Part shown: one piece after another, positions 2,094 through 24,666 of the stretch
How positions within the stretch are numbered: position 1 is the first letter of the stretch
Layout: every line of letters starts with the position of its first letter
NCBI RefSeq assembly: GCF_010671925.1
Contig: NZ_JAAHIH010000001.1
Location: forward strand, 677,053-741,052
Length of the DNA: 64,000 nucleotides
Reading direction: 5' to 3'
Source of the DNA: Moorena sp. SIOASIH
GTDB lineage: Bacteria; Cyanobacteriota; Cyanobacteriia; Cyanobacteriales; Coleofasciculaceae
Notes under the pieces: model-generated
What the model was told of the DNA's origin: nothing
Databases searched by the model: none
The model's input: the letters and a program-made list of their open reading frames with translations, nothing else
Made by a program: the position numbers and the translations under genes

Positions 2094-2263
2094 GGTAGCT
2101 CACCCATAATCACTGGTAGTTTTGTGTGTATTGATTTGAACTGAGAACACGAAGGTTGGCGAAAGTCAATCTTGAACACAGTGGGCGATATACTGATCAC
2201 CCCTGATCACCCCAAGAGCGATTTTTTACGCAAAACATTTACAAACTTTCATAAATGCCAGAG

Positions 2264-5200
2264 TTAAAGATCTAGCTGTTGCTGGGCTAGGTGGTAGTAC
2301 AGACCTTTCTCAGCCATGAGTTCGGAGTGGGTACCGCGCTCTGCGATCAGACCTTGGTCGAGGACCAGTATAGAGTCAGCATTGCGCACCGTAGAAAGAC
2401 GGTGGGCAATTATGAAGGTAGTGCGATCGCGACTAATGCGAGCTAAATTTTGTTGAAAACGTCGCTCTGATTCTGTATCTAGGGAGCTAGTCGCTTCATC
2501 GAGAATCAGAATCTTGGGGTTACCCAGCAAGGCTCGGGCGATCGCAATCCGTTGCCGTTGTCCCCCAGACAGGTTAGACCCTCGCTCCCCAACCTTGGTG
2601 TTGTATCCCAGGGGCAGGTTTTGAATAAACACATGAGCTTCAGCCAATTTGGCAACTTCTACCCCTTGTTCGAGACTATACTCAGGTTTGTATAAGGTGA
2701 TGTTCTCTAAAATCGTCCCTGAAAACAAAAAGCATTCTTGAGGTACCACACCTAATTGAGAGCGCAAAGACTGGGGAGAAACATGTCGGATGTCGTGGCT
2801 ATCAATCAAAATACGGCCTGTAGTTGGCTGATAGAGTCCTTGGAGCAGCTTTACCAAGGTACTTTTGCCCGAGCCACTGCGTCCGACAATGGCTATGGTC
2901 TTTCCAGGGGCAACCTCGAAGGAAATGTTTTGAAGGGTGTATTGTTCATCATCCTCACTATAGCGAAAGCTGACATTGTCAAACTGGACATGCCCCGCGA
3001 TCGCAGGCAATGGCATCAAGGGTTTTTGGGTATTCTCTTCTGGCTGGGTGGTCAAGACATCATCGAGCCGTTCCACCGATACCAATATTTCTTGGAACTC
3101 ATCCCAAAGTCCCACCAAAGACAAAATCGGGCTAATCACCCGACCAATGAGCATATTAAATGCCACAAACTGACCAATCGTGAGCTGTTCCTGAATTACC
3201 AGACTTGCTCCCAACCACAGTAAAGCCGTGCCGCTGAGGTTATTAATCAAGCCACTCACTGACCCTAAGCCGTTGGCCAAGTTCTGTCCTTTGAATTCCA
3301 TATTCAACTGACCCGTGAGGCGGTCTTCCCAGCGCCAGCGCACCTCTTGTTCAGAGGCTGCTGCTTTGACAGTTGCTACTCCCGACATCATTTCTACTAA
3401 CAGGGAGTTTTGTGCTGCTGCTTCTTTAAAGATTTCCCTGGACACTTGGCGTAGAAATGGACTGGCAAGTATGGTCAAAATCGCAATCGGTACAATCGTT
3501 GCCAGCACCAGCAAGGTTAGGTACCAGTTGTAGTAGAGCATCAGCCCCACATAGACAAACATCATTACCACATCCAGCCAAGTGGCAATAGCTTGCTGAG
3601 TGAGGAACGCCTGAATTTTCCCAGTTTCCTGGACTCGGGTTAGGATGTCCCCCACCTGGCGGGATTCAAAAAACTTCAGGGGTAGTGTGAGGGTATGCTT
3701 AATAAAGCCACTGACAAAGGTAAGACTGAGTCGATTGGAAAAGTAATCCAGCAGGTAGCGTCTGGTGACACTCAAGCCTATGCTCCAAAGGCCAAAGATG
3801 ACTAGACCAATTGCAAACACATTGAGGGTAACAACACTTTTGTTAACCACCACCTGATCCAAAATGATTTGGGTAAACAGGGGGGTAATCAGACCAAACA
3901 CCTGGAGCAGTAGGGAAGCTAGGATAATTTGCAACAGGACTGTGCGATGGGGCCATAGCAATCCCCAAAAGCGATTCAGAGAAATCTTTTGATTGGGAGT
4001 CCCTGCTAGCTGGGGAGTGGGATTCAACAGCAGCGCATATCCTGTCCAACCCTCTAGAAATTGTTGTCGAGAAAGCGATCGCTTTCCCACAGCTGGATCT
4101 GCAACAAGTACCTTCTCCCCTTTGACCCAATAGACAACTATATAATGATCACCTTGCCAGTGAGCAATCCAGGGGTTACTCCGATCCGCTAGGCGAGCTA
4201 AAGACGCTCTAACTGGAGTAGCTTGAAATCCTAAGGTTTCTGATGCTCTGGCTAACCCTTTCAGGGATGACCCAGAACGCCCCACTCCAGCCAGATTCCG
4301 TAGGGAATTCAAGCTAAATCGTTTGCCCCAGTAGCGTCCAATCATTGCCAAGCAAGCAGCGCCACAATCTGAAGAGGATTGCTGTTCAATGAAGGGATAG
4401 CGTTGCCACAACCCCTGAAGAAAAGGCCGCTTCGTCGGTACGGGAAATGGGATCAGTTTAGACTCAGCCTGGGTCGAGTTACTTTGTGTTTCACCATTTC
4501 CATCAGGGAGCTTAGATGGAATTAGCGGTACTCTGTGACCCGACTGAGTACGGACTTGGTGAACTATGGCGCTAGTGGCTTCTGATTTCTGGTGTCCATT
4601 TTCAGAGCTTTGACCCTTCTGTGGACTCAACTTTGCCAGCACCGGTGCCAGGAGTTGGGCAGTGTCCCAATGTTCCTGAGGTAGATGGGTTACCCATAAA
4701 TCGCTTTGGGCAATCCAATCTTCCGGTACTGGCTGAGGATAGCCCCAACTTTCGCCAATGGCAATGGTTAGTGGGCAATTCTCTTCAACTCCACCCCTTT
4801 CAATCTGACCACTACGTAGCCAGTAACGACCGACTTGGCCAGACTCAACTAAGGACTCCCCAGCGGAAATCCGTGTGTCTAGCAGGTAGGGCAACAATTG
4901 CTGTAGGGTGATGCTGTCAAGGGTACGCAATTCTGTCAAGGTCTTGAAGAAAATCAAGCGTTGCCGGTGCTGAGCTTGTTGCTGTAGGTGTTCGAGCCAC
5001 TCCGGTAGCCGTTCTAACCAAGATTGGAGTTCAGCTAAGGACATCCGAGCCATCTGTCCTGAACTCGCTGCGATCGCTTGGTAAGGATAAGATAGGTTGC
5101 ACAACAGTGCCTCAGCCCCAAAGGTTGCCCCCTCTTCAAGAACCTGTACGGATACGTCCCGCTGCTTTTCCCCATCAAAGCTTAGCAGCCGCACCCGCCC

Positions 5201-5473
5201 GCCACAGACGACGTAAAAATACTTATTTGGTTCATTTTGAACAGAATTTTGGCTTAACTCCCGTCTAGGATAGGGTATAATTTCATCACCTAGCTCAAAG
5301 TTATGAATTTGGAAGGATTGACTAAATTCTGGTAATAGTGTCTTTGATAGCGTCTTATCCAACCAGTTCGCGATTAGGTGTTCAATAACCTCGGAAGATT
5401 TCTGGGTCGGGTATTGGCCAAGGTAATCTGGTGGTTGCCCTGATTTTTCTAAACCGACCGTTTTCTGATGCAT
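2264..5473 (-). CDS. Peptidase-containing ABC transporter (N-terminal cNMP-binding-like domain + C39 cysteine peptidase + 6-TM + ABC ATPase); HetC-like bacteriocin/peptide exporter, paralog 1
   Basis: 1069 aa. C39 motif QQSSSDCGAACLAMIGRYWGKRF has the catalytic Cys. Walker A GRSGSGKST, ABC signature LSGGQRQRIAIARAL, Walker B ILILDEATSSLD. The N-terminal region shows a Crp-like beta-roll pattern (FELGDEI...VVCGGRVRLL...EEGATFGAEALL). Confidence 0.9.
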   Translation of the reverse strand: MHQKTVGLEKSGQPPDYLGQYPTQKSSEVIEHLIANWLDKTLSKTLLPEFSQSFQIHNFELGDEIIPYPRRELSQNSVQNEPNKYFYVVCGGRVRLLSFDGEKQRDVSVQVLEEGATFGAEALLCNLSYPYQAIAASSGQMARMSLAELQSWLERLPEWLEHLQQQAQHRQRLIFFKTLTELRTLDSITLQQLLPYLLDTRISAGESLVESGQVGRYWLRSGQIERGGVEENCPLTIAIGESWGYPQPVPEDWIAQSDLWVTHLPQEHWDTAQLLAPVLAKLSPQKGQSSENGHQKSEATSAIVHQVRTQSGHRVPLIPSKLPDGNGETQSNSTQAESKLIPFPVPTKRPFLQGLWQRYPFIEQQSSSDCGAACLAMIGRYWGKRFSLNSLRNLAGVGRSGSSLKGLARASETLGFQATPVRASLARLADRSNPWIAHWQGDHYIVVYWVKGEKVLVADPAVGKRSLSRQQFLEGWTGYALLLNPTPQLAGTPNQKISLNRFWGLLWPHRTVLLQIILASLLLQVFGLITPLFTQIILDQVVVNKSVVTLNVFAIGLVIFGLWSIGLSVTRRYLLDYFSNRLSLTFVSGFIKHTLTLPLKFFESRQVGDILTRVQETGKIQAFLTQQAIATWLDVVMMFVYVGLMLYYNWYLTLLVLATIVPIAILTILASPFLRQVSREIFKEAAAQNSLLVEMMSGVATVKAAASEQEVRWRWEDRLTGQLNMEFKGQNLANGLGSVSGLINNLSGTALLWLGASLVIQEQLTIGQFVAFNMLIGRVISPILSLVGLWDEFQEILVSVERLDDVLTTQPEENTQKPLMPLPAIAGHVQFDNVSFRYSEDDEQYTLQNISFEVAPGKTIAIVGRSGSGKSTLVKLLQGLYQPTTGRILIDSHDIRHVSPQSLRSQLGVVPQECFLFSGTILENITLYKPEYSLEQGVEVAKLAEAHVFIQNLPLGYNTKVGERGSNLSGGQRQRIAIARALLGNPKILILDEATSSLDTESERRFQQNLARISRDRTTFIIAHRLSTVRNADSILVLDQGLIAERGTHSELMAEKGLYYHLAQQQLDL

Positions 5474-12237: not shown

Positions 12238-12269
<32 letters not shown>

Positions 12270-12282
12270 GTCAGTGCTGACA

Positions 12283-12810: not shown

Positions 12811-13192
12811 AGACAAGGTCAAAAACGGTAATTATTTTGTATAATAGATTTAGAAATGCTATATAGGTAAACTACTTACTAGAAGAAGCATGGCAAGAGG
12901 ATGAACTTCTGCTAGAAATTCTGCCACTAGAGTCTCTTTTGACAGTAACCTCTTGAATAATGGTTGCTTCATCTCCAGAGGCAGTTGCTGTACTTTCGGC
13001 TTGGACTACAACCGTACCATCTGGTGAAACTATCCATTTTCTGATTGTCTGGGAACGTCTCATGGTTACATCACTCTAGTTAGTTATTTTAGTCATGGGG
13101 TAAATTCAATTTACTTACCCCTGCTCCGAAGCTCCGTTCGCGCCCCGCGTGCCCTACGGCCTCAGTCCCTAAAACCAGTAATAGCATTGGGA

Positions 13193-13951
13193 TTATTCCC
13201 CAGTATTGATGCTACTAAGTTCACTATGGATCATATAGTTAACTTCACTATTGAGCCACTCTTGAAACATACTCTGTAAAATTTCTTTAGACTTTTCTTC
13301 GGTTAATTCAGCTGGAATAAATTCTTCAACTAAGAAAAGATGATATCCTTGTTCGGTTTGCAGGGGATGAGTCACTTCTCCTGGCTGAACACTAAAGATA
13401 ACGGCAGCTATCTCAGGCTTAAAACTCCAGCGAGGCAACTTTCCTTCATAGCCACACCGTCGCTGCCTTTCTGGGTCTATATCATAGAAATGAGCAGCTT
13501 CATAAAAACTGATTTCTCCTTCCTCAATCTGATAGAAAAGCTCCTGAGCAATTTCCTCAGAATCCACCATAATTTGATAAACCAACACTTGCTCAAAGTC
13601 CAGTCGATTTTGAGCAAAGCTTTTTTCGACATCCTTAGAAAATAAGGACTCAGCAAGCTTTTGGGCAAGCAAGCGATCGCTAATTCCCGCTTCCCAATCT
13701 TCTGCTGTCACCATCTGATCTGCCAGCCAGGCCAATGTTTCTGCTGCCTTTTCCAAACGATGGGCATAACGGATCTCATCCGCCTGAGCTTGCACGTCTT
13801 CTGGTGTGACTGTTATCCCTCTTTCCTGAGCCGCTTTATTGATAACTCGTTGATACAAAACTTTTTGACAGATGCCCTTCAGATGCATCTCCTTTTTCAA
13901 GGAGTACATAATTTCCTCTGGAGTCACCGATGCTTTGGAAAGGTCAACCAT
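13193..13951 (-). CDS. PpiC/parvulin-type peptidyl-prolyl cis-trans isomerase with an N-terminal SurA-like chaperone segment
   Basis: 252 aa. The parvulin core pattern is readable: VLVYQIMVDSEEIAQELFYQIEEGEISFYEAAHFYDID...GYEGKLPRWSFKPEIAAVIFSVQPGEVTHPLQTEQGYHLFLV. Confidence 0.65.
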   Translation of the reverse strand: MVDLSKASVTPEEIMYSLKKEMHLKGICQKVLYQRVINKAAQERGITVTPEDVQAQADEIRYAHRLEKAAETLAWLADQMVTAEDWEAGISDRLLAQKLAESLFSKDVEKSFAQNRLDFEQVLVYQIMVDSEEIAQELFYQIEEGEISFYEAAHFYDIDPERQRRCGYEGKLPRWSFKPEIAAVIFSVQPGEVTHPLQTEQGYHLFLVEEFIPAELTEEKSKEILQSMFQEWLNSEVNYMIHSELSSINTGE

Positions 13952-14342
13952 TACACCCGATTATTAACTAGAACTGGAACTACTTACAGTCTTGGTCAGA
14001 TTCAGCTGAGTCAACCCTCTGACTCTTATCATGATACAAAAAGCAATTCCTAACCTCTGCCAAGTTGCCGAATTGAGGGCGTAGTATAGCAATTATCATA
14101 GTTATGAGCGACATTGCTTATCCTTTTAAGGCAGAGGGCAGAAGGCAGAGGGCAGCAAGGCAAGAAGGTCTTAAAGGCAATCAGCACCAATAAAGACTGT
14201 ACCTCATAGGTATGAGAAACGCTATATTTGCCAGTCAAACCTAGAGTTTAGACTTATCCCTCAATCAAAACACCTCGCCCCTCAATCCCCGTTTTGAAGC
14301 CAGCACACAGAAGCTAGATTAGATTTTGTGAAGCTTATAGCT

Positions 14343-14639
14343 TCAGAAGTATCTGCTAAAGAAGTTAAATCTCATGAAAAAAGGTTCCTGAATATTAGGT
14401 GCTGAGAAGTTATCAGTACCAGCGCTAGCTTCAACAATACCCCCAGTGTTTGTGGCTTTACTAGCAGATGCTTGCACTGCACTGGTAGCCATGTTTCCAT
14501 CAGGATCGATGCTCATGGAATTAGTCATAGTACTTGCTGCCTCAGGATTTACTTCCGATACAGATATAATTGCAGAACGACTAGCCTTCATCGTTGTAAA
14601 TGAGCCAGGTAAAGCCCATAAATCAAAGCTATCAAACAT
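14343..14639 (-). CDS. Small Ser/Thr/Ala-rich precursor-like peptide (98 aa), possible exported peptide
   Basis: Strong Shine-Dalgarno (aaaggagg, 9 nt before the ATG). N-terminus MFDSFDLWAL is loosely similar to the ISDLNHLE leaders of neighbouring peptides. An internal TNTGG motif is present. An operator-like palindrome TAGTGAAAAATTCACTA lies upstream. Confidence 0.45.
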   Translation of the reverse strand: MFDSFDLWALPGSFTTMKASRSAIISVSEVNPEAASTMTNSMSIDPDGNMATSAVQASASKATNTGGIVEASAGTDNFSAPNIQEPFFMRFNFFSRYF

Positions 14640-14892
14640 AATCGTTAACCTCCTTTGTTACTAATGGAACGAGTTACAAACAATTTTAATTAGTGAAAAA
14701 TTCACTAGACTTTTTGCAGAAGTAGGGAACTTCGGATCGGGTAATTTCGGATCGGGTAACTTAGGCTCAGTGGACAATAATTGATAAAATTATTATCATA
14801 AAATCGATGCAGCGCTGTTGCCTGTTGCCTTTTGCCTTAAAAGAATAAGCAAATTACCTCACCCAAATAAGAACTGCTATATATTTGTTGAG

Positions 14893-15180
14893 TTACCCAA
14901 TGAAACCATAAATCGCAAAGGCATCGTAGACAGAATGACCCGAGTAAAAACGATCCCTAGCCCTAGCCTCAGCTCTTGCCCTAGCTTCAGAAAAGAACTC
15001 GTCTACATCGGTAAAGCCTTTTACCGATGTATCGGTATACTGACCGAAAGCATCGGCCTTACCATGAGCGGTAGCAATGCCAGGACCAGTGAAGACTTGA
15101 GCATTAGTAAAAACAAAACCACCTAAAATAGGGTGGTCTTTTACCTCTAGCTCGAAATATTCTAATTGATCAATTTTCAT
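14893..15180 (-). CDS. Double-glycine leader peptide / bacteriocin-like precursor (95 aa)
   Basis: Shine-Dalgarno aggaga 8 nt upstream. Leader MKIDQLEYFELEVKDHPILGG, then a 74-aa Gly/aromatic-rich core ending AIYGFIG. Confidence 0.55.
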   Translation of the reverse strand: MKIDQLEYFELEVKDHPILGGFVFTNAQVFTGPGIATAHGKADAFGQYTDTSVKGFTDVDEFFSEARARAEARARDRFYSGHSVYDAFAIYGFIG

Positions 15181-15788
15181 GAATGATTCTCCTGGTCAAA
15201 TTAGGTAATGGTTAATTGTGCTCGGGAGCATTTACAGCGGTTTGCAATTCAGTTAGGTACAAAGTTCTAGTTTTTTAGGGAGTAGGGAGCAGGGAGCAGG
15301 GAAAAGGGAAGTCGGAAGTGGGAAAACAATCCTGTGTACCTGATAGTTATGCAAACCGCCGTAAAAGCAACTAAAAATCAAAGCGGGAGCATGTCAGTTT
15401 TGTTAATCCCTGATTCAGAACCCCCACCTCCTTAATAAGGGGGACTTTTGAATCTAATTCCCCCCAAGGTTCACGGGGGGTTAGGGGGGATATATGTACA
15501 TAATTACAAAGGTGACATGCTTCCAATCAAAGCAACTAAAAATGATGGATTAGTCCCATCGTTTTCCGTAACTAGCAAGCCAGATGTTACTACTACTAAT
15601 TGCTTCCTCATTTTACTCACTGCTAGCAAGATGCTCCCACTACCAATTCACAAAAATGGGATGCTCCCATTGTGATTAATGCTGCGGAAAGATGTTATTG
15701 ATTTCTTCTTCATCTTTCCGCAGCATTGATACCGTTAAATCTCAACTAGTACTCTAAGCCGTTTTAGTAATGACGCTTATTAGAAGCA

Positions 15789-16061
15789 CTAGTGAGAAGA
15801 ACTAGCAGATGTTGCATTTAGGCTAGAATGAGAACTATAGTCAGTAGTTGTAGTAGTGCCATTGATGCTGGTGAAGGTATTATTACCAAAGGCTCTTGCG
15901 TCGCCGTCAACCCTAGCTACGTGCCCTTTAATGTTGGTACCGACGTTGATATATCCGTTATATACGAAAGAGTTGTAGTGAGGTGGGTAGTAGCGAGATC
16001 CACCCACAACCTTGGGGTCCTCAGCAATAGTTTCTAAATGATTTAGATCAGAAATAATCAT
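15789..16061 (-). CDS. Double-glycine leader peptide / bacteriocin-like precursor (90 aa)
   Basis: Shine-Dalgarno aaggag upstream. Leader MIISDLNHLETIAEDPKVVGG. Core is Tyr/Thr/Ser-rich (SRYYPPHYNSFVYNGY...TTTTTDYSSHSS). A GCCAATTTGGC box lies about 90 bp upstream. Confidence 0.6.
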   Translation of the reverse strand: MIISDLNHLETIAEDPKVVGGSRYYPPHYNSFVYNGYINVGTNIKGHVARVDGDARAFGNNTFTSINGTTTTTDYSSHSSLNATSASSSH

Positions 16062-16366
16062 TATTTACTTTTCTCCTTTTGACTTTTTTTGTGTTAATAA
16101 ACTTGTTGAGTTTACACTCTAATTAAACTAGCAAATTTCCAAAATGTTTGTCTCGCCAATTTGGCAAGAAACCTATTGAGTTCCGGTTTGATATAACTAT
16201 TGGCGATTTAATACCCTGAAGTAATCAAACTGAAGCAATCAAACGTAAACCTGAGTGTACTCATCCTGATATAGAACTAAATTTGCTGCATGCGCTGCAT
16301 TCTATTAGGATATGAGGACACCCAGGTTTACAAGTTACTTAATCAGAAACTTGTCCTGAATAAGTA

Positions 16367-16696
16367 TTAGTAGGGGAAGATAGCAGAGGTAGTAATACCT
16401 ACAGACTTGGAGGCAGTTCCGTCAGGACCCTCAATAGTAACGGCTACGCTTTGTTGCTTAGTACCAACATTAAAACCGCTAGCGCTAGAACCTTCACCTT
16501 GGCTAGAGCTTGAAGCGCTAATACCACTAATGTCTACATTAGCTGTAATGTCAACACTGAAAATGTCGGTTTCGGTGACGGTGCTGGTGGTGCTTAAATT
16601 GGTGACGATATCGTTGTTGAATGAGATTCCAGCAGAAGCACCTTGAACTTGGCTAGCGTCAACAGATTCTAGATGGTTTAGGTCAGAAATAAGCAT
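16367..16696 (-). CDS. GG/GA-type leader peptide / bacteriocin-like precursor (109 aa)
   Basis: Shine-Dalgarno aaggag 8 nt upstream. Leader MLISDLNHLESVDASQVQGA is nearly identical in its first 10 residues to the 15789 ORF. Core is Ser/Thr-rich. The same GCCAATTTGGC box lies about 92 bp upstream. Confidence 0.6.
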   Translation of the reverse strand: MLISDLNHLESVDASQVQGASAGISFNNDIVTNLSTTSTVTETDIFSVDITANVDISGISASSSSQGEGSSASGFNVGTKQQSVAVTIEGPDGTASKSVGITTSAIFPY

Positions 16697-17039
16697 TGAT
16701 TTTCTCCTTCTTTGTTGTTGATTTTGTTTGTTTGAATCAGCTTTGTTTGAGCTGTTGATATAACTATAGCCAGATTCCCCTAGGCATGTCTCGCCAATTT
16801 GGCTTAAACCTTTTTTTTTTTTAAATCACTGAATTTACTAAAAGTATCTAGTCACCAGTAACCGATTTTGAATTAGTTCAAAGAGATTGGTAATCTTGAT
16901 GGGGTTTTATTGAAGTAAGTTATTAGTAATGAGCGTGTTATTATATCTAATCTAATTAAAAATTTGAACGCCACTTTGGCTTGATATTGATGATTGAATT
17001 CTCCCAGAACTAAAGTAGGTACTTTCGTTCTGGGTTTTA

Positions 17040-17236
17040 GGGAGTAGGGAGTAGGGAGTAGGGAGCAGGGAACAGGGACTTCGGAGCAGGGAGTGTGGGA
17101 AGTGTGGGGAGAGGGGGGCGTGTGGGGCGTGTGGGGCGTGTGGGGAGATGGGCAGAGGGGAGAGTGTGGGAAGTGTGGGAAGAGGGGGGCGTGTGGGGCG
17201 TGTGGGGCGTGTGGGGAGATGGAGAGATGGGGAGAT
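17040..17236. repeat. STRR-like heptamer tandem arrays (GGGAGTA, GTGTGGG, GATGGGGA)
   Basis: Direct reading. Similar arrays at 10012-10062, 12217-12280, 15278-15327, 43927-44075, 44096-44172, 45095-45244, 45925-45992, 54938-54993, 59176-59250 and 63137-63378. Confidence 0.9.
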
Positions 17237-17543
17237 GAAATTATTGATGTGTAGCCGTGTGAGGGCTAAGAATTGGTATAACCTGAGTTCGATATAAGCG
17301 ATCGCTGGACGAAAGAGTAAGAAATAGAAGGCTTGCACAACTAGGGTAGATTAAGGCTTTCAGGGTTACGTCTAACTTAGGTTAACTAGGGATTAGCCAC
17401 GCTTAAACCCTTAGATTAGGCCCGCTTAACCATTAACCGTGCCACCTAGCCCTAACCCTCAAAACTAAATTGACAGAGTACTAGGGCTGTTTTTACTAGG
17501 GCTGTTTTTACTAGGGCTGTTTCATTCCGGTCTATGATCAGAT

Positions 17544-17580
17544 AAAAAAACGCCTCGTCCATCAACACGGACAAGGCGGT
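17544..17580 (-). terminator. Rho-independent terminator of the hetP-like gene
   Basis: On the minus strand: ccgccttgtccgtgttgatggacgaggcg followed by ttttttt. Confidence 0.6.
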
Positions 17581-17683
17581 TATTAATGAATTACTTTGAC
17601 CACAGGCTTAGTCTGATCTGGTGTGGTGGTAAGCAGTGGCTGGTAATGACAAGGAGGATGGGTAGGAAAATGATTATACCTGC

Positions 17684-18118
17684 TCACCACAGGGAAACCA
17701 AACAGTCTTGCCGTAAATACTCGGCTAACTTCTTGAGCATGGATTCCTCTTCTTCCAGTTCACTGATAAACCACTCTTCTTGATCGCCACCGTGGACGTG
17801 TGAGGTTTTCTTGCCAAGCTTCTCTACATAAGCCAGATCTTTGATCTGGCTCAAACGCTGCCGTGCATTCAAGGCTTTAGTGCCATTGCTCATCATACTA
17901 GCTTGCTTCTGTAAGATCATATCCCGGTTTTGTTTGAGCAAGCGGCTGTAGGTTCTAGAAGGCATGTAGTCTAGGGGGTTATGGCCCGCAAAGCGTAGCA
18001 TCAACACACAAGCCCAAGAATACTTGCCATCAAGGATGGCTTCCTCGATCTCGCTAAACTTATCGGTATCCATCACTTTTTCGAGCTTGGTATTGGCAGA
18101 AGGAATACGATAGGTCAT
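17684..18118 (-). CDS. HetP-like protein (hetC-associated family)
   Basis: 144 aa. Core [34 protein letters not shown] is shared with the ORF at 24352-24666. It lies immediately downstream of the HlyD/HetC-like pair, matching the hetC-hetP arrangement known in Anabaena. Family assignment is from recollection of the conserved SWACVL core, not a search. Confidence 0.55.
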
Positions 18119-18287
18119 GGTTATTTCTTATCCTGTAAGTCTAAAGGTCAATAGTTTATAAGCTGGGGTGCAGTTAACTTGCAGATTTCAAGGAATTACT
18201 AGCAAGTTGACTACTAAGAATTAACGGTCAACTGTTAACCGTCAACGGAAAACGATCAGTCAGTGATGAAAATGAGAGAACAGAGCA

Positions 18288-19892
18288 CTATAGATCGATG
18301 CCACTTTTTTGCAGCTGTCGCATCGGATCCAATAAGAAATCGATAATCCGACGGCGGCGGATGATGATGTCAGCATTGGCGGTCTGACCAGCCTTAAACC
18401 GGATGATTTCATCCTCTTCAATCACATAGTCACGGTCGAGGGACACTTTCACCTTATAGACTGAACCCATTTGTTGATCGGCTTTAGCATCGGAAGAGAT
18501 GGAAATCACCGTGCCTTTGATGATGCCGTAATCCTGATAGGGATAGGCATCAAATTTTACTTGCACTGGCATTCCTTCGTTAATGAACCCTGCCTCGCGA
18601 GTAGGCAAACTTGCGGATAGCACTAGGGGGGCACCTTGAGGAGCGATTTCGGCGATGCTACGTCCCGGTTGCACCACTTCACCAGCATTAGCAATGTTGA
18701 GGGAAGATATTATCCCATCCACTGGCGCTTTGAGAAACTTCTGTTTGAGCCTGGTTTTAGCAGTAGTAACCAGGGTTTCATTTTCAGCAATTCTAGCTTT
18801 GATTTGGGTCAGTTCTAGTTCTAACTGTTGAATTTTCTGCTGTGTTTCTAAGCGAGTGGTGCGTCCCGTCGCTTGCCGATGCTCTAATTCTGCTTCTAGT
18901 CGCTTGATTTCTGCTAAAGTCTGTTCTAGCTCACCTCGGCTTTGGCTAGTCGCCGCTTCGCGATCGCGTATACTTTGCTGAGCTTGAAAGATCTGTTCCC
19001 GAGTACTCAAACCTTCTTGCAGTTTGCTTTCAGTAACAGCACTTTGGCTAGCACGAAAGCTTTGTTCTGCTTGAAATACGTGTTCTTTGGAGATTGCTCC
19101 TTCTGCCAACAGAGGTTTAAGGTTATCGAGTCGTTCCTTGAGAGCCACTACATTAGCCCGCCGTTGCTGGAGCAGTTCTTTGGCTGTCGCCTGCACCAGT
19201 TTCAGCCGTTGTAATCGTTCGCGATTAGCAGCTTTAGCTAACTGATGTTGAATGATTTGTTGTCTAATCGCCGACGCACTAGCTTGTGCTCGTGCGATCG
19301 CAGCTTGTTGCCCTTGAACTTCTGCTTGGGTAATTTGCTCACGGGTTTCCGCTTCCAGACGGGTTCTGTCAATCAGTCCTTGCATCTGAACTAACTTAAT
19401 CCGGTCTGAATTAAGCACTTTCTCTAAACGCTCTACTTCCTGAGTGGCAAGGTCTGTATCCAGTTCCACCAAGACTTCCCCAGCTTTAACCGCTTGCCCT
19501 TCTTTGACCTTAATACTGGCAACCTTGCCTGGCTCAATCGGGTCAACTTTATAAACGTCCCCTTTTGGCACTAAGCTTCCATGAGCTTTACCCACTTCAT
19601 CAATCTGCCCAAACGTTGCCCAAGCCACAAATATTGTACAGAAGCTTAAGCCACCCAACATCAGCAGCCGAGGAAGGTTCGCCGGAGGCTGATCGAGGGT
19701 AGTTTGTATGGAGGTTGACCATTTGGACGTACTAGGAGCATTGGCAGTATTGGTTCCTACCTCTGTGCTGGGTGAGGCTACAGCCTCTTGGTCATAATCA
19801 GGTCTCAGGCGACCTGATGGCATTAAAACGACGTTACCCTGACGACTGGTAGCCGCTTCAGGTGGGGAGTTGATTGGTTTTGCTTGTGTCAT
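18288..19892 (-). CDS. HlyD-family periplasmic adaptor, paralog 2
   Basis: 534 aa. Collinear with the ORF at 459-2093 (same TM, coiled-coil and C-terminal IIIRRRRIIDFLLDP). Confidence 0.85.
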   Translation of the reverse strand: MTQAKPINSPPEAATSRQGNVVLMPSGRLRPDYDQEAVASPSTEVGTNTANAPSTSKWSTSIQTTLDQPPANLPRLLMLGGLSFCTIFVAWATFGQIDEVGKAHGSLVPKGDVYKVDPIEPGKVASIKVKEGQAVKAGEVLVELDTDLATQEVERLEKVLNSDRIKLVQMQGLIDRTRLEAETREQITQAEVQGQQAAIARAQASASAIRQQIIQHQLAKAANRERLQRLKLVQATAKELLQQRRANVVALKERLDNLKPLLAEGAISKEHVFQAEQSFRASQSAVTESKLQEGLSTREQIFQAQQSIRDREAATSQSRGELEQTLAEIKRLEAELEHRQATGRTTRLETQQKIQQLELELTQIKARIAENETLVTTAKTRLKQKFLKAPVDGIISSLNIANAGEVVQPGRSIAEIAPQGAPLVLSASLPTREAGFINEGMPVQVKFDAYPYQDYGIIKGTVISISSDAKADQQMGSVYKVKVSLDRDYVIEEDEIIRFKAGQTANADIIIRRRRIIDFLLDPMRQLQKSGIDL

Positions 19893-20689: not shown

Positions 20690-23600
20690 TTAAAGATCTA
20701 GCTGCTGCTGCGCTAGATGATAGTAAAGACCTTGACGATCCATGAGTTCCTCATGGTTGCCTTTCTCGACCAGAACACCTCGGTCTAGGACAAGGATGCA
20801 GTCAGCATTGCGCACTGTAGAGAGGCGGTGGGCGATGATGAAGGTAGTGCGATCGCGACTAATGCGAGCTAAGTTTTGTTGAAAGCGGCGCTCGGATTCT
20901 GTATCTAGAGAGCTAGTCGCTTCATCCAGAATCAGAATCTTGGGGTTGCCCAATAGGGCTCGGGCTATGGCAATCCTTTGTCGTTGTCCACCAGAAAGGG
21001 TAGAGCCTCGCTCTCCTACTTTTGTATTATATCCCAAAGTCATACCTTGAATAAAGGCATGGGCTTCTGCTAGTTTGGCTACCTCTACGGCTTGATCGAG
21101 GCTGAAATCTGGTCGGTAGAGAGTGATATTTTCGACAATTGTCCCCGAGAACAAGAAACATTCTTGGGGTACCACACCCATTTGAGAACGCAAGGATTGG
21201 GGGGAAATATGGCGGATATCGTGTCCATCTATCAAAATACGACCATTAGTCGGATGATAGAGACCTTGGAGTAGCTTCACCAAGGTACTCTTGCCCGAGC
21301 CACTGCGCCCCACTAGAGCAATGGTTTCTCCAGCCCTAATATCTAGGGAAATATTCTGTAGGATATTGCGATCCTCATCCTCCGAGTATCGGAAGGTAAC
21401 ATCTTCCAATATTACATCACCCTTAATCTCAGGTAGAACCAGCATCGGTTCTTGAGGATTCTCCTCTGGCTTAGCAGATAAGACATCATTCAGCCGTTCT
21501 ACAGACACCAAGATTTCTTGAAACTCATCCCAAAGATTCACTAGAGCCAAAATTGGACCAGTCACTCGGCCAATGAGCATATTAAACGCGACATACTGAC
21601 CGATAGTAAGCTGCTCACTAATTACTAAGCTAGCGCCAAACCAAAGTAAAGCGGTGCTGCTGAGAGTATTAATTAGAGAACTAATTGACCCCAACCCGTT
21701 CGCTAGGTTTCTACCTTTAAATTGTACATTCAACTGATTGGTGAGGCGATCTTCCCAGCGCCAGCGCACTTCTTGTTCTGAAGCCGCCGTTTTTACAGTA
21801 GCAACCCCTGACATCATTTCCACTAACATAGAATTTTGTTGAGCTGCTTCTTTAAAAATTTCCCTGGACACCTGGCGTAGAAAGGGACTGGCAATCACAG
21901 TCAAGATGGCGATGGGTAAAATCGTTGCCAGCACCAGCAAGGTTAAGCGCCAATTGTAGTAGAGCATCAGTCCAATATAGACAAACACCATCACCACATC
22001 TAGCCAAGTAGCAATAGCTTGCTGAGTTATAAAACCCTGAATTTTTCCAGTTTCCTGAATTCGGGTCAGGATATCCCCCACCTGGCGGGATTCAAAAAAC
22101 TTCAGGGGTAAGGTCAGGGTATGGTTTATGAACCCACTGATGAAGGTGAGACTAAGCCGATTAGAAAAATAGTCGAGCAAGTAGCGTCTGGTTAGACTAA
22201 CCCCAATTGTCCAAAGGCCAAAGATGATTAGACCAATGGAGAAGACATTGAGAGTGACAAGGCTTCTGTTGATAATCACCCGGTCAAGAATGATCTGGGT
22301 AAATAGGGGAGTAATCAGACCAAAAACCTGAAGGATGAGGGTAGCCAGGATAATTTGCAGCAGAACTGAGCGATGGGGCCATAGCAACCCCCAAAACGGC
22401 CCTAGAGAACGTTTGTCGCTGGGAATCACTGCTAGTTGGGGAGTTGGATCCAAGAGCATGGCATACCCAGTCCAACCTTGGAGAAAGTCTTTGCGAGGAA
22501 GCGATCGCTTCCCCACTGCTGGATCAGCAACGAGTACCTTATTACCCTTTACCTGGTAGACAACAATATAGTGATCTCCTTGCCAGTGAGCAATCCAAGG
22601 ATTACTCCGATCCGCTAAGCGACCTAAAGAAGCCCTGACTGGACTAGCTTGAAACCCTAAACTTTCCGCTGCTTTAGCTAAACCTTTGAGGGATGAACCA
22701 GAACGACCCACTCCCGCCAGTTCCCGCAGGGAGTTGAGAGCAAACCTTTTGCCCCAATACTGCCCAATCATGGCTAAGCAGGCAGCACCACAATCGGAGG
22801 AAGATTGCTGCTCAATAAAAGGATAGCGCTGCCAAAACCTTAGGAATCTCCAACCTTGCTTTGCTGGTTTGGGAAAATCAAAGCTTTCTGACTGACTCGG
22901 TTCTTTTGGCGTTTGTTGCTTAGGAGGTTCTAAAACTCGCCGAGTCGGTCGTGCTCTAGTCTGGTTTGGATGTGGTGACGGAGTATGGGTCTTGTTAACT
23001 AGGCGTTGATGGGATGGAGATTTACCGTCACCATTTTTAGCAGTTTGCCTGTTCTCCTGATCCGGTGACTCGGTGGAGTTATCCAAAACTGGTGCGATCG
23101 CGCAAGCCGCTTGCCAATGCTCTTGAGGCAGCTGGTAAAGCAATACATCAGTTTGGGCAATCCAATTTGTTGGTACTGACATCGGATATCCCCAACTTTC
23201 TCCGATGCTAGGAAATGGGGCAGAGGAATTTTCCTCTGTTCCTTCTGGCGTTCCCATTTGACCACTACGTAGCCAGCAATGCCCAGCTTGGGAACAGGAC
23301 ACCAGAGACTCCCCAGCCTCAATTCGTGTTTCTACGATGTAGGGCAACAGTTGATTTAGGGTAACACCGTTAAGCGTACGCAATTTGGTCAAAGTCTTGA
23401 AGAAAATTAGGCATTGCCGGTGCTGGGCTTGTTTCCCCAGGATTTCCGACCACTTTGGCAACCGTTCCAACCAAGGCAAGAGTTGATTTAGCGAAATACG
23501 AGCAACTTGTCCTGAACTCGCTGCGATCGCTCTGTAAGGATAGGATAGACTACCTAAGAGATCATAGGCACCAAAGGTTTCCCCTTCTTCGAGTACCTGT

Positions 23601-23917
23601 ATGGAAACCTCCCGCTGTTTTTCAGCATCAAAGCCTAGTAGTCGTATCCGCCCCTGACAAACTAGGTAAAGATATTGGTGGTCTTGTTCAATCTGAACAG
23701 AATCTTGGGATAGCTCTGGTCTAGTATAGGCAAGGATTTTATCCCCTAACTGGAATTGCTCAAGGTCAAATGATTGACTAAATTCATAGTTGAGCTTTGG
23801 ATCGACTGAGTCTAGGGTCAAGCTTTGAAGCACCACTGATAAATTGCTAGCAGGGTCTGGGTTGATAGAAGACGGTGGTTTCCCAGGCTCTGCCGAATCC
23901 CTGATTATATTCTTCAT
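20690..23917 (-). CDS. Peptidase-containing ABC transporter (cNMP-binding-like + C39 + ABC), HetC-like, paralog 2
   Basis: 1075 aa. QQSSSDCGAACLAMIGQYWGKRF, GRSGSGKST, LSGGQRQRIAIARAL, ILILDEATSSLD. Its linker region between the N-terminal domain and C39 differs from paralog 1. Confidence 0.9.
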   Translation of the reverse strand: MKNIIRDSAEPGKPPSSINPDPASNLSVVLQSLTLDSVDPKLNYEFSQSFDLEQFQLGDKILAYTRPELSQDSVQIEQDHQYLYLVCQGRIRLLGFDAEKQREVSIQVLEEGETFGAYDLLGSLSYPYRAIAASSGQVARISLNQLLPWLERLPKWSEILGKQAQHRQCLIFFKTLTKLRTLNGVTLNQLLPYIVETRIEAGESLVSCSQAGHCWLRSGQMGTPEGTEENSSAPFPSIGESWGYPMSVPTNWIAQTDVLLYQLPQEHWQAACAIAPVLDNSTESPDQENRQTAKNGDGKSPSHQRLVNKTHTPSPHPNQTRARPTRRVLEPPKQQTPKEPSQSESFDFPKPAKQGWRFLRFWQRYPFIEQQSSSDCGAACLAMIGQYWGKRFALNSLRELAGVGRSGSSLKGLAKAAESLGFQASPVRASLGRLADRSNPWIAHWQGDHYIVVYQVKGNKVLVADPAVGKRSLPRKDFLQGWTGYAMLLDPTPQLAVIPSDKRSLGPFWGLLWPHRSVLLQIILATLILQVFGLITPLFTQIILDRVIINRSLVTLNVFSIGLIIFGLWTIGVSLTRRYLLDYFSNRLSLTFISGFINHTLTLPLKFFESRQVGDILTRIQETGKIQGFITQQAIATWLDVVMVFVYIGLMLYYNWRLTLLVLATILPIAILTVIASPFLRQVSREIFKEAAQQNSMLVEMMSGVATVKTAASEQEVRWRWEDRLTNQLNVQFKGRNLANGLGSISSLINTLSSTALLWFGASLVISEQLTIGQYVAFNMLIGRVTGPILALVNLWDEFQEILVSVERLNDVLSAKPEENPQEPMLVLPEIKGDVILEDVTFRYSEDEDRNILQNISLDIRAGETIALVGRSGSGKSTLVKLLQGLYHPTNGRILIDGHDIRHISPQSLRSQMGVVPQECFLFSGTIVENITLYRPDFSLDQAVEVAKLAEAHAFIQGMTLGYNTKVGERGSTLSGGQRQRIAIARALLGNPKILILDEATSSLDTESERRFQQNLARISRDRTTFIIAHRLSTVRNADCILVLDRGVLVEKGNHEELMDRQGLYYHLAQQQLDL

Positions 23918-24351: not shown

Positions 24352-24666
24352 CTAGACCTTACTAACAACCTTTGATTGTGATACAGGGGTTTTGCCAACT
24401 GGATGCTTACCAGCTTGACTATTTTCTTTGATTAACCGATTGTAGGTTCGGTAAGGGATGTAATGGAGGGGGTTGTAGCCAGAAAAACGCAGAACTAACA
24501 CACAAGCCCAAGAATACTTGCCTGCGATGATAGCTTCTACGACCTGGTTAAGCTGCTCATTAGTCATGACTTGTTCAGAGCTCGTAGAGGTTGACGTTGG
24601 TTGAGATGTTCTACTAGTTGATGGTCTACTAGTTATTGAAAGCAATTTTTTTGCCATGGTAGTCAC
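24352..24666 (-). CDS. HetP-like protein, second copy
   Basis: 104 aa. [35 protein letters not shown] core after a Ser/Thr-rich N-terminal tail. Confidence 0.5.

What the first reader, a model, noticed from the sequence alone, without database searches (positions are those of the whole stretch)
14343..16696. Cluster of four small precursor-like genes with strong Shine-Dalgarno sites and GG/GA leaders
All four are on the minus strand and each has an AAGGAG-type Shine-Dalgarno. The ORFs at 15789 and 16367 start with near-identical leaders: MIISDLNHLETIAEDPKVVGG and MLISDLNHLESVDASQVQGA. The ORF at 14893 has MKIDQLEYFELEVKDHPILGG. The cores are Ser/Thr/Tyr/Gly-rich and unrelated to one another, as expected for leader-directed export substrates of the flanking C39 transporters. 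The ISDLNxLE leader resembles cyanobacterial bacteriocin-like precursors as I remember them (unverified). The 14343 ORF is the weakest member.
Basis: partly seen in the sequence, partly recalled or inferred. Interest (0 to 1): 0.8.

Follow-up and report, generated by a model that had tools for sequence, protein, structure and literature searches.

The report
Leader-tagged small proteins beside HetC-like exporter
Four small, strongly translated genes in a Moorena cyanobacterium are real. Three carry a cleavable double-glycine export tag and sit in an already catalogued kind of peptidase-ABC export cluster; the one less ordinary point is that the tag is the same motif found inside the heterocyst regulator HetP.

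Summary
The four minus-strand ORFs exist as described. All have AGGAG-type ribosome-binding sites, against 1 of 32 large ORFs in the window. All are intact in other Moorena genomes.

- **ORFs 15789 and 16367:** they start with a leader (MIISDLNHLE…GG/GA) that matches a model built only from other genera, at E=3e-11 and 4e-8.
- **ORF 14893:** it has a divergent GG leader.
- **ORF 14343:** it has no recognisable leader.

The locus reads cNMP+C39 ABC exporter, HlyD, HetP-family gene, small genes, PpiC rotamase. This order recurs across many cyanobacteria. It corresponds to the "group II bacteriocin clusters" of Wang et al. 2011, so it is a new member of a known kind.

- **Cores are not all unrelated.** 15789, and weakly 14893, belong to an uncurated core family of about 274 sequence clusters.
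- **Cores evolve fast.** Within Moorena the cores have dN/dS above 1, while the ISDLN leaders (15789, 16367) are conserved.
- **The leader is also inside HetP.** It is the same motif found internally in most HetP homologues, including the one next door.

The most likely mechanism is cleavage after GG/GA and export by the adjacent HetC-like transporter. This is inferred, not shown. The extracellular role is open: microcin-like, matrix-forming or signalling.

The parts
16367..16696 (-). Small precursor-type gene A, 109 aa. The leader is residues 1-20, MLISDLNHLESVDASQVQGA, with predicted cleavage after Gly-Ala. The 89-aa core is acidic and Ser/Thr-rich.
   Evidence: ORF and AAGGAG site. Leader matches a model built without Moorena at E=4e-8. 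Homologues of 54-100% identity occur only in Moorena, where the leader ends in GG and the gene is present in 3-4 copies.
15789..16061 (-). Small precursor-type gene B, 90 aa. The leader is residues 1-21, MIISDLNHLETIAEDPKVVGG. The 69-aa core belongs to a widespread conserved core family.
   Evidence: Leader model E=3e-11 and core model E=1e-13, both built without Moorena. The profile finds 274 sequence clusters at E<=1e-3. Leader dN is 0-0.02, against core dN of 0.03-0.30, between Moorena genomes.
14893..15180 (-). Small precursor-type gene C, 95 aa. It has a divergent leader, MKIDQLEYFELEVKDHPILGG, and its core carries the same A-x-A-x-A-x-A-x-G-x-x-T motif.
   Evidence: ORF and CAGGAG site. 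It fits the loose leader pattern but not the leader model. Core model E=0.007. 36% identity over 36 aa with the core of gene B. Moorena-only homologues of 64-91% identity.
14343..14639 (-). Small conserved gene D, 98 aa, with no recognisable GG leader. Its role is unknown.
   Evidence: AAGGAGG site. Intact in three other Moorena genomes: 98, 98 and 96 aa at 98%, 81% and 57% identity. No hit to the leader or core models. No homologue in the 78 non-Moorena HetP loci.
16763..16803 (-). Promoter-like element of gene A. The palindrome GCCAAATTGGC runs into GAGACA, followed by 18 nt and then TATAGT.
   Evidence: It is conserved in position in other Moorena genomes.
16149..16165 (-). Second exact copy of GCCAAATTGGCGAGACA, upstream of gene B.
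   Evidence: two exact copies; five matches at up to 3 mismatches against 0.16 expected. repeat D4.
16245..16331 (-). Hairpin with 20-nt arms (90% complementary), just downstream of gene A.
   Evidence: inverted repeat I4.
15675..15730 (-). Hairpin with 20-nt arms (95% complementary), just downstream of gene B.
   Evidence: inverted repeat I3.
17684..18118 (-). HetP-family gene, 144 aa: an N-terminal HetP domain, an internal leader-like motif, and a 33-aa C-terminal tail.
   Evidence: NF037966 HetP_family, E=4e-28. Motif.
17786..17845 (-). Internal motif [20 protein letters not shown] of the HetP-family protein (residues 92-111).
   Evidence: The same motif is present in 76 of 90 HetP homologues. 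Described as KIxDLxYLEx10GG by Wang et al. 2011.
17551..17578 (-). Intrinsic-terminator-like hairpin (12 pairs plus a T run) after the HetP-family gene. It separates that gene from the small genes.
18288..19892 (-). HlyD-family type I secretion adaptor, 534 aa.
   Evidence: TIGR01843, 253.9 bits, above its cut-off of 208.65.
20690..23917 (-). HetC-like peptidase-containing ABC exporter, 1075 aa: cNMP-binding domain, C39 peptidase, transmembrane domain and ATPase.
   Evidence: Pfam C39 5e-41, cNMP 1e-9, ABC_membrane, ABC_tran. Cys376/His449/Asp465. Full-length match of residues 361-1071 to PCAT1, 4ry2, at 7.5e-132. 50.6% identical to the ABC gene upstream of hetP in a Nostoc genome.
24352..24666 (-). 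Second, short HetP-family gene upstream of the exporter. It ends after the HetP domain and has no leader-like motif.
   Evidence: NF037966, E=5.5e-35. Alignment.
13193..13951 (-). PpiC-type peptidyl-prolyl isomerase, 252 aa. This is the conserved last gene of the module.
   Evidence: PF00639, 8.8e-12. Weak similarity to TIGR04500, a peptide-maturation PpiC relative, at 46.6 bits against a cut-off of 180. Conserved position in other genera.
459..5473 (-). Second exporter pair: a cNMP+C39 ABC gene (2264-5473, 72% identical to the first) and a HlyD gene (459-2093).

Best explanation
Genes A, B and probably C encode precursors of small secreted proteins.

**Proposed mechanism**
- The N-terminal 20-21 residues (M-I/L-I-S-D-L-N-H-L-E, then 8-9 residues, then V-x-G-G/A) form a double-glycine-type leader.
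- The C39 cysteine-peptidase domain of the adjacent HetC-like ABC exporter binds the leader and cuts after GG/GA.
- The 69-89-residue cores then leave the cell through the ABC/HlyD type I secretion conduit. An outer-membrane partner must be encoded elsewhere.
- The cores have no cysteine and are rich in Ala, Ser, Thr, Gly and Asn.
- The cytoplasmic PpiC-type isomerase that always closes the module probably assists the precursors.
- The exporter's cNMP-type domain probably gates export. In Anabaena HetC this domain binds ppGpp.

**Gene organisation**
- Genes A and B each form a separate unit: palindrome-bearing promoter, 5'UTR, strong ribosome-binding site, ORF, hairpin.
- This layout suggests high and regulated expression.

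**What is shown and what is inferred**
- Shown here: the genes, leader-family membership, conserved gene order, an intact catalytic pattern in the peptidase, and selection patterns.
- Inferred: cleavage, export and extracellular role.
- The locus is a member of the group II cyanobacterial "bacteriocin" clusters.
- Gene D travels with the cluster in Moorena but is not demonstrably a substrate.
For: **Genes are real**
- ORFs and leaders. Ribosome-binding sites far above chance.
- All four ORFs are called as genes and are intact in other Moorena genomes.

**Leader family**
- The leader model built only from other genera hits B at E=3e-11 and A at E=4e-8.
- Of 149 family representatives, 139 have a 19-24-residue leader ending GG (120), GA (11) or GS (8), with Val/Ile at position -4.

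**Conserved context**
- The order ABC(cNMP+C39), HlyD, HetP, leader ORFs, PpiC recurs in Phormidiaceae, Coleofasciculaceae, Chroococcidiopsidaceae, Aliterella, Kastovskya and Leptolyngbyaceae. In Scytonema, Stigonema and Brasilonema the leader ORFs lie about 9 kb downstream of HetP, behind a second ABC/HlyD/PpiC set.
- Leader ORFs go with an HlyD gene next to HetP: 13 of 29 loci against 4 of 40, Fisher p=0.0015.

**Exporter is functional by sequence**
- Both exporters keep the catalytic Cys/His/Asp pattern.
- The first aligns end to end with the solved transporters PCAT1 and ComA.

**Selection**
- The ISDLN leaders of A and B are conserved (dN 0-0.065, against 0.08-0.13 for the divergent leader of C), while core dN is 0.16-0.44 between species (window against L002 or L007).
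- Neighbouring genes have dN of 0.01-0.02.

**Precedent**
- In Synechococcus elongatus, four tandem GG/GA small proteins need the C39 cysteine of PteB for secretion. Their mature N-termini were seen by mass spectrometry (PMC4997328).
- Group II clusters were catalogued with HetP plus arrays of 73-95-aa acidic precursors (PMC3140520).
Against: - No curated double-glycine leader or bacteriocin model matches any of the four ORFs at E<=1. A canonical GG-leader ORF elsewhere in the window does get a weak hit.
- In 21-residue leaders the hydrophobic spacing is -4, -10, -13, -16. The classical spacing is -4, -7, -12, -15.
- Gene C's leader is not recognised by the leader model, and gene D has no leader.
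- Core dN/dS of about 1 or more is also what non-coding sequence would give. The case for coding therefore rests on ORF integrity, conservation of the ISDLN leaders and family conservation.
- The structure model is of low confidence: pLDDT 61, with only a C-terminal hairpin.
- No expression, peptide or cleavage data were available. No outer-membrane component was identified in the window.
Confidence: 0.7

Rival explanations
1. Role rival 1: the exported cores are microcin-like toxins (class II microcin type), used against related cyanobacteria or other competitors. The cores would be diversifying in an arms race.
For: - Core dN/dS is 1.3-1.9 between Moorena species, with conserved ISDLN leaders (A, B), and core dN is about 10-20 times that of neighbouring genes.
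- Gene copy number varies between strains, from 4 to 7 small genes.
- Size, absence of cysteine, Gly/Ala/Ser richness and neutral-to-acidic charge resemble class II microcins exported by a C39-ABC/HlyD-type pair. The microcin comparison rests on my own knowledge; composition is.
- Wang et al. classed such clusters as bacteriocin clusters.
Against: - No candidate immunity gene (a small membrane protein) lies next to the precursors.
- The core of gene B is conserved across many genera, which is unusual for a strain-level weapon.
- No homology to any named bacteriocin or microcin model.
Confidence: 0.3
2. Role rival 2: the exported cores are structural proteins of the cell surface, sheath or matrix. 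They would self-assemble into beta-rich (amyloid-like) material, as EbfG1-3 do in Synechococcus elongatus biofilms.
For: - The layout is the same as ebfG1-4/pteB: four tandem GG/GA small proteins next to a C39 exporter and HlyD.
- EbfG1-3 form amyloids, according to the paper read.
- The mature N-terminus of gene B (SRYYPPHYNSFVY) is Tyr/Pro-rich, like EbfG1 (TTYNPPSYPYPSYPK) and EbfG2 (SGYSIPTYPK).
- The very strong ribosome-binding sites suggest bulk production.
- The core family is conserved, has alternating polar and hydrophobic stretches, and has a predicted beta-hairpin in an otherwise disordered monomer.
Against: - EbfG cores are reported to have no homologues in other cyanobacteria.
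- PteB belongs to the short exporter type without a cNMP domain. Its best Anabaena homologues include Alr5147, which lies next to alr5148, the hlyD of Wang's group III example.
- Amyloid propensity was not computed here.
- Fast core evolution is not typical of structural proteins.
Confidence: 0.3
3. Role rival 3: together with the HetP-family protein, the small proteins are signalling cargo of a HetC/HetP-type developmental module. They would act in filament cell-cell communication rather than as weapons or matrix.
For: - The small genes directly follow a HetP-family gene that carries the same motif internally.
- Cross-searches link the two motifs. The leader model finds 56 HetP ORFs among 137 hits in 8,262 ORFs. 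The HetP-motif model finds 38 leader ORFs and only 7 others besides HetP.
- The exporter is 50.6% identical over its full length to the ABC gene upstream of hetP in Nostoc.
- HetC's substrate is still unknown (PMC10986499).
Against: - As far as I know, Moorena forms no heterocysts.
- The window's own leaders match the HetP-motif model only weakly: E=1.3 for gene A and no hit at E<=10 for gene B.
- Cores of 70-90 residues are large for diffusible signals.
- The hetC-hetP loci of heterocyst formers that lack an adjacent HlyD mostly lack leader ORFs.
Confidence: 0.15
4. Mechanism rival: the ORFs are translated but not exported. The leader-like segment would be a cytoplasmic interaction motif, for example for binding the exporter's peptidase domain or HetP as a regulator. 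Alternatively, some of the ORFs (14343 above all) are not functional genes.
For: - No cleavage or secretion data exist.
- Core dN/dS is about 1 or more.
- No curated family matches.
- ORF 14343 has no leader, and its dN/dS is about 1.3.
Against: - All four ORFs stay open at nearly constant length through up to 43-47% amino-acid divergence.
- Ribosome-binding sites are far above chance.
- The ISDLN leaders of A and B are under purifying selection while synonymous sites change.
- The family has about 274 sequence clusters, nearly all matched from residue 1.
- GG/GA/GS lies at a fixed distance from the start in 139 of 149 members.
- Leader ORFs associate with complete ABC+HlyD sets.
Confidence: 0.08

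Closest known systems
Group II (and I) cyanobacterial "bacteriocin" gene clusters of Wang, Fewer and Sivonen 2011 (PMC3140520)
   Same: - Long-type ABC exporter with an N-terminal nucleotide-binding (CAP_ED/cNMP) domain plus C39 peptidase.
- HlyD and a SurA/rotamase-domain protein.
- An adjacent HetP-like gene.
- Tandem arrays of 73-95-aa, mostly acidic, unclassified GG precursors, for example cce_2673-2676 next to HetP cce_2677.
   Different: - No M16 peptidase or other modification enzyme was found in the 64-kb window.
- Moorena was not in that survey.
- The paper reports the KIxDLxYLEx10GG motif only for HetP and tentatively assigns it to an M16 peptidase.
- It does not describe the shared N-terminal leader or the conserved core family of the small precursors.
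EbfG1-4 / PteB of Synechococcus elongatus PCC 7942 (PMC4997328)
   Same: - Four tandem small genes of 9-10 kDa with GG or GA leaders, next to a C39 ABC exporter and HlyD.
- Secretion depends on the peptidase cysteine.
- Mature N-termini are Tyr/Pro-rich.
   Different: - PteB is of the short type without a cNMP domain. This is inferred from Alr5147, one of its best Anabaena homologues, lying next to alr5148, the hlyD of Wang's group III example.
- There is no HetP gene there.
- EbfG cores are reported to lack homologues in other cyanobacteria.
HetC-HetP of Anabaena/Nostoc PCC 7120 (PMC10986499, PMC4133259)
   Same: - An exporter with the same domain order (cNMP, C39, transmembrane domain, ATPase) and 50.6% identity to the ABC gene upstream of hetP in a Nostoc genome.
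- A HetP-family gene follows, with the internal I-K-D-L-A-Y-L/V-E-x10-GG motif.
   Different: - The Anabaena locus has no adjacent HlyD and no GG-leader genes, as the authors themselves state. The gene downstream there is patC.
- The Nostoc locus L013, used here as a proxy, carries no GG-leader ORF downstream of hetP.
- The Moorena locus has HlyD and three or four small genes.
- Moorena is not known to make heterocysts (my own knowledge).
Class II microcins with CvaB/CvaA-type export (for example microcin V), from my own knowledge
   Same: - Gram-negative producers.
- A 15-20-residue GG/GA leader.
- Mature proteins of about 60-90 residues, rich in Gly, Ala and Ser, neutral to acidic.
- Export by a C39 ABC protein plus an HlyD-type adaptor plus an outer-membrane channel.
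   Different: - No sequence similarity detected.
- No immunity gene seen.
- The exporter carries an extra cNMP domain.
- The cluster includes HetP and PpiC genes.
NHLP and Nif11 (N11P) leader families of cyanobacterial RiPP precursors
   Same: GG-terminated leaders processed by C39 ABC exporters, in tandem arrays in cyanobacteria.
   Different: - Those leaders are long, folded domains of about 60-80 residues, and the cores are Cys-rich and modified.
- Here the leader has 20-21 residues and the cores have no cysteine.
- No match to TIGR03793/TIGR03798-type models in NCBIfam at E<=1.

Membership tests
Double-glycine leader / PCAT substrate (general class) | N-terminal leader of about 15-30 residues ending in GG, GA or GS | tested here: met
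   Gene A: 20 residues ending GA. Genes B and C: 21 residues ending GG. Gene D: not met. Family-wide: 139 of 149 members, of 19-24 residues.
Double-glycine leader / PCAT substrate (general class) | Conserved hydrophobic residues at -4, -7, -12 and -15 of the leader | tested here: inconclusive
   Position -4 is Val/Ile in 44 of 45 leaders of 21 residues. The other hydrophobic positions fall at -10, -13 and -16. In 20-residue leaders such as gene A they fall at -4, -9, -12 and -15.
Double-glycine leader / PCAT substrate (general class) | Match to a curated leader or bacteriocin model | tested here: not met
   No NCBIfam or Pfam family at E<=1 for the three leader-bearing ORFs; 14343 has only a sub-threshold match to an unrelated domain, NF033768, E=0.04. 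None for 19 family members either.
Double-glycine leader / PCAT substrate (general class) | Adjacent ABC exporter with a catalytically intact C39 domain | tested here: met
   PF03412 at 5e-41 and 5e-40. Cys376/His449/Asp465 in the first exporter and Cys370/His443/Asp459 in the second.
Double-glycine leader / PCAT substrate (general class) | Leader is cut after GG and the core is exported | not testable with these tools
   Needs an in vitro cleavage assay or exoproteomics.
Group II cyanobacterial bacteriocin cluster (Wang et al. 2011) | Long-type exporter (nucleotide-binding domain plus C39 plus ABC) | tested here: met
Group II cyanobacterial bacteriocin cluster (Wang et al. 2011) | HlyD and a rotamase (SurA/PpiC) gene in the cluster | tested here: met
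   Same positions in other genera.
Group II cyanobacterial bacteriocin cluster (Wang et al. 2011) | HetP-like gene and several tandem GG precursors | tested here: met
Group II cyanobacterial bacteriocin cluster (Wang et al. 2011) | Additional modification genes, such as an M16 peptidase, that separate group II from group I | tested here: not met
   No M16 or other modification enzyme among the large ORFs of the window. By this criterion the locus lies between groups I and II.
ISDLNxLE-leader / A-x-A-x-A-x-A-x-G core family (uncurated, defined here) | Leader matches a model built from other genera | tested here: met
   Gene B E=3e-11, gene A E=4e-8. Genes C and D give no hit.
ISDLNxLE-leader / A-x-A-x-A-x-A-x-G core family (uncurated, defined here) | Core matches a model built from other genera | tested here: met
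   Gene B E=1e-13. Gene C is marginal at E=0.007. Genes A and D give no hit.
EbfG proteins | Sequence homology of the mature part to EbfG1-4 | not tested
The authors report no homologues in other cyanobacteria.
HetP family | N-terminal HetP domain (GKYSWACVL…NPL.YIPYRTY) | tested here: not met
   The small ORFs lack it. They share only the leader-like motif.

The most novel reading that the evidence does not exclude
The I-x-D-L-x-Y-L-E-x(9-10)-GG segment inside HetP-family proteins may be the same export and cleavage signal as the N-terminal leader of the small proteins encoded next to them.

If so:
- HetP proteins would be genuine substrates of HetC-type peptidase-ABC exporters.
- They would be cut after GG into a cytoplasmic HetP domain and an exported C-terminal tail.
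- The Moorena-type module (exporter, HlyD, HetP, small cargo genes, PpiC) would be the complete form of the secretion system from which the heterocyst hetC-hetP pair derives.

This would name a candidate for the still unknown HetC substrate.
Probability: 0.3. Interest if true: 0.75.

Novelty: new member of a known kind. Interest (0 to 1): 0.4.

Why it matters
In kind this is a catalogued cluster type, so the cluster itself is no surprise. It gains some value in four ways.

- **Family definition.** The "other" group II precursors can now be defined as a family. They share a sharply conserved 19-22-residue leader and, for many members, a conserved cysteine-free core. There are about 274 sequence clusters, all annotated as hypothetical, and no Pfam or NCBIfam model covers them.
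- **Selection pattern.** Within Moorena the cores change at about 10-20 times the protein-level rate of their neighbours, while the ISDLN leaders (genes A and B) stay nearly fixed. This points to an extracellular role under diversifying selection.
- **Link to HetP.** The same leader sits inside HetP next to HetC-type exporters. A 2024 study states that the HetC substrate is unknown and that no leader-bearing gene lies near hetC. The comparison gives a directly testable candidate: HetP cut after its GG.
- **Natural-product mining.** For work on Moorena, these are ribosomal secreted proteins rather than modified peptides.

Tried and rejected
- **Curated families.** NCBIfam and Pfam scans of the four ORFs and of 19 family members found nothing meaningful.
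- **Word-index homologue searches.** For three ORFs these returned only Moorena proteins and one JGI protein. The family looked genus-restricted until the exhaustive profile search and the HetP-anchored locus scan.
- **Literature search for the motif strings.** DLNYLE, DLAYLE and similar strings gave no paper.
- **Solved structures.** The PDB sequence search with the family profile gave only a chance hit.
- **Structure prediction.** AlphaFold2 with 103 sequences gave a low-confidence model (pLDDT 61, pTM 0.35), so no fold search was run.
- **RNA families.** An Rfam scan of 12000-20800 found nothing.
- **PatC (asr2819).** This is the small gene downstream of hetP in Anabaena, and I considered it as a relative. 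The corresponding Nostoc locus has no GG-leader ORF there, so I rejected it.
- **Gene D with a short leader.** I considered MF..F.LW.LPGS as a short leader, since it has hydrophobic residues at -4, -7, -9 and -12 before GS. At 13 residues it is too short, and nothing supports it beyond the pattern.
- **M16 peptidase.** Wang et al. proposed one for the HetP motif. None is present in the window.

Full report
**1. What is there**

The window comes from a Moorena (formerly Moorea) cyanobacterium. The 109-aa ORF is 100% identical to a protein of Moorea sp. SIOASIH, and the 90-aa ORF is 96% identical to one of M. producens JHB.

All four ORFs lie at the stated coordinates on the minus strand, and the quoted leaders are exact. 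The ribosome-binding sites are AAGGAG for 16367, 15789 and 14343, and CAGGAG for 14893.

This is a strong signal in this genome:
- AGGAG lies 5-18 nt upstream of only 0.86% of all ATGs in the window.
- Only 1 of 32 large ORFs has such a site.
- All four small ORFs having one would occur by chance at about 5e-9.

**2. Are they genes?**

In M. producens JHB all four are called as genes of identical length (109, 90, 95, 98 aa). Other Moorena genomes have the same gene order. There the 109-aa type ends its leader in GG and occurs in three or four copies. ORF 14343, the weakest, is intact at 98, 98 and 96 aa with 98%, 81% and 57% identity.

Selection is unusual between the window and other Moorena species (L002, L007):

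| Region | dN | dS | dN/dS |
|---|---|---|---|
| Leaders of A and B (ISDLN type) | 0-0.065 | 0-0.25 | – |
| Leader of C (divergent) | 0.083-0.129 | 0.086 | – |
| Cores of A, B, C | 0.18-0.44 | 0.10-0.28 | 0.75-2.9 |
| Whole genes, including D | 0.11-0.35 | 0.085-0.27 | 0.6-1.9 |
| Neighbouring ABC, HlyD, PpiC genes | 0.01-0.02 | – | 0.15-0.25 |

So the cores change about 10-20 times faster at the protein level than the surrounding genes. The ORFs stay open, and the ISDLN leaders of A and B stay nearly fixed.

**3. Surroundings**

Reading along the minus strand, the locus contains:
- a short HetP-family gene (24352-24666);
- a 1075-aa ABC exporter with cNMP-binding, C39 peptidase, membrane and ATPase domains (20690-23917);
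- an HlyD-family adaptor (18288-19892);
- a 144-aa HetP-family gene (17684-18118), followed by a strong terminator-like hairpin;
- the four small genes;
- a cytoplasmic PpiC-type isomerase (13193-13951).

A second exporter/HlyD pair, 72% identical to the first, lies at 459-5473. Three RTX-repeat proteins lie between the two sets.

Both exporters keep the catalytic Cys/His/Asp pattern. The first aligns over residues 361-1071 with the solved transporters PCAT1 and ComA.

Genes A and B each have their own unit:
- an exact 17-nt element, GCCAAATTGGCGAGACA, with a palindrome running into a -35-like hexamer;
- a -10-like hexamer: TATAGT after 18 nt for gene A, and by eye a weaker TAGTTT for gene B;
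- a leader of roughly 60-70 nt;
- the ribosome-binding site and the ORF;
- a hairpin with 20-nt arms.

**4. The leader is a family trait well beyond Moorena**

Word-index searches returned only Moorena relatives. I therefore fetched 80 loci around HetP homologues from species-representative genomes.

- 75 of the 80 loci have a C39 ABC gene within 10 kb.
- About 20 loci outside Moorena carry one to five short ORFs that begin M-[IVL]-I-[SNT]-D-L-[NS]-[YH]-L-E and reach GG some 9 residues later.
- These ORFs usually sit directly downstream of HetP, in the order ABC, HlyD, HetP, small ORFs, PpiC.
- They go with an HlyD gene next to HetP: 13 of 29 loci against 4 of 40, p=0.0015.

A leader model built only from sequences outside Moorena scores gene B at E=3e-11 and gene A at E=4e-8 in a space of 8,262 ORFs. 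Genes C and D do not score.

An exhaustive profile search of 1.84 billion representatives finds 274 sequence clusters at E<=1e-3 and 56 at E<=1e-10. Almost all are 85-105 aa and match from residue 1. The ten I looked up are named "hypothetical protein" or carry no name; those with an organism name are cyanobacterial.

Among 149 of these representatives, 139 have a 19-24-residue leader. It ends GG in 120, GA in 11 and GS in 8, with Val/Ile at -4.

**5. The cores are not all unrelated**

Many family members share a conserved core of the form G-N-x-A-x-A-E-A-x-A-x-A-x-G-x-N-T-x-T … T-T-P-Y-S-S-x-S.

Against a core model built without Moorena:
- gene B scores E=1e-13;
- gene C scores E=0.007, over the stretch IATAHGKADAFGQYTDTSV;
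- genes A and D do not score.

Genes B and C are 36% identical over 36 residues. The cores have no cysteine and are neutral to acidic. They therefore look like unmodified small secreted proteins rather than lanthipeptide-type products.

No Pfam, NCBIfam or PDB entry covers the family. The structure model is of low confidence, with only a C-terminal hairpin.

**6. Link to HetP**

Wang et al. 2011 reported a motif KIxDLxYLEx10GG inside HetP proteins. The HetP-family protein directly upstream of the small genes has it: [20 protein letters not shown], followed by a 33-residue tail. So do 76 of 90 HetP homologues in the fetched loci, each followed by a tail of about 6-65 residues, mostly under 45.

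The N-terminal leader of the small proteins is the same motif with a spacer one residue shorter. Cross-searches bear this out at the family level:
- The small-protein leader model picks 56 HetP ORFs among its 137 hits at E<=10.
- The HetP-motif model picks 38 leader ORFs and only 7 unrelated ORFs besides HetP, with best cross hits at E=4e-4.

For the window's own leaders the cross-match is weak: E=1.3 for gene A and none for gene B.

I found no paper that mentions these motif strings. Wang et al. do not connect the HetP motif with the leaders of the small precursors.

**7. Comparison with what is known**

The locus fits the group II (or I) cyanobacterial "bacteriocin" clusters of Wang et al. 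These have a long-type exporter, HlyD, a rotamase, HetP and arrays of 73-95-aa acidic precursors of unclassified family. The exception is that no M16 peptidase or other modifying enzyme is present in the window.

The nearest experimentally studied analogue is ebfG1-4/pteB of Synechococcus elongatus:
- Four tandem GG/GA small proteins need the peptidase cysteine for secretion.
- They enable biofilm formation.
- Their mature ends are Tyr/Pro-rich, as in gene B.

That exporter is of the short type.

The exporter here is HetC-like. It has the same domain order as HetC and is 50.6% identical to the ABC gene upstream of hetP in a Nostoc genome. For HetC, protease activity and ppGpp binding by the cNMP domain have been shown. 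Its substrate is explicitly unknown, and the authors state that no leader-bearing gene lies near hetC.

**8. Verdict**

The interpretation as substrates of the C39 exporters is the best-supported reading for genes A and B, probable for C and unsupported for D.

The thing is a new member of a known kind of cluster. Three results go beyond the catalogue:
- the definition of the leader and core family;
- fast core evolution within Moorena;
- the identity of the leader with the internal HetP motif.

The third gives a testable candidate for the HetC substrate. Cleavage, export and extracellular role are all inferred.

Noticed in passing
window 39102-42476 (-): A 102-aa ORF (42168-42476) has a canonical double-glycine leader (…MKDLTEDELKGIEGG) and a Lys/Ser/Phe/Gly-rich core with one Cys. 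It matches a lactococcin G-beta leader model weakly (E=0.0055). Next to it lie an LxmK-like kinase (40412-41602, NF038156, E=4e-19) and a HopA1-family protein (39102-40397). This may be a class V lanthipeptide-like cluster.
   Followed up: partly
window 6913-12198 (+): Three paralogous RTX calcium-binding-repeat proteins, one with a C-type lectin domain, lie between the two C39-ABC/HlyD pairs. Their N-termini share …KPNFA[ND]ATG[GSN]A[QK]F. Whether they are also cargo of these exporters was not examined.
   Followed up: no
window 16787-16803 and 16149-16165 (-); also L050 and L065: The palindrome GCCAA-N-TTGGC sits 94-115 nt upstream of the start codon of ISDLN-leader genes in Moorena. It also does so in a Coleofasciculaceae MAG and in Aliterella. 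Background is 0.03 per 300 nt. It is probably a shared operator or promoter element for an unknown regulator.
   Followed up: partly
window 14085-14147 and 14819-14881: 63-nt inverted repeats, 73% complementary and built partly of short G-rich tandem units, flank ORF 14343 on both sides.
   Followed up: no
window 12872-13063 (-): A 63-aa ORF lies just downstream of the PpiC gene and is called as a gene in M. producens JHB. It has no leader, but it matches the core-family model weakly (E=0.09) through VVVQAESTATASGDEAT.
   Followed up: no
window 24352-24666 (-): A second HetP-family gene upstream of the exporter stops right after the HetP domain and lacks the GG motif. The locus therefore holds both a tagged and an untagged HetP paralogue.
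   Followed up: partly
window 17035-17243: Long G-rich tandem repeats (9-nt units such as GCGTGTGGG, and heptamers such as GGGAGTA) lie between the HetP-family gene and gene A. A related block lies at 15273-15323.
   Followed up: no
window 29303-30535 (-) and 55985-62667 (-): An IS605 OrfB/TnpB-type gene, and two large NACHT-HEAT STAND NTPase genes in tandem.
   Followed up: no
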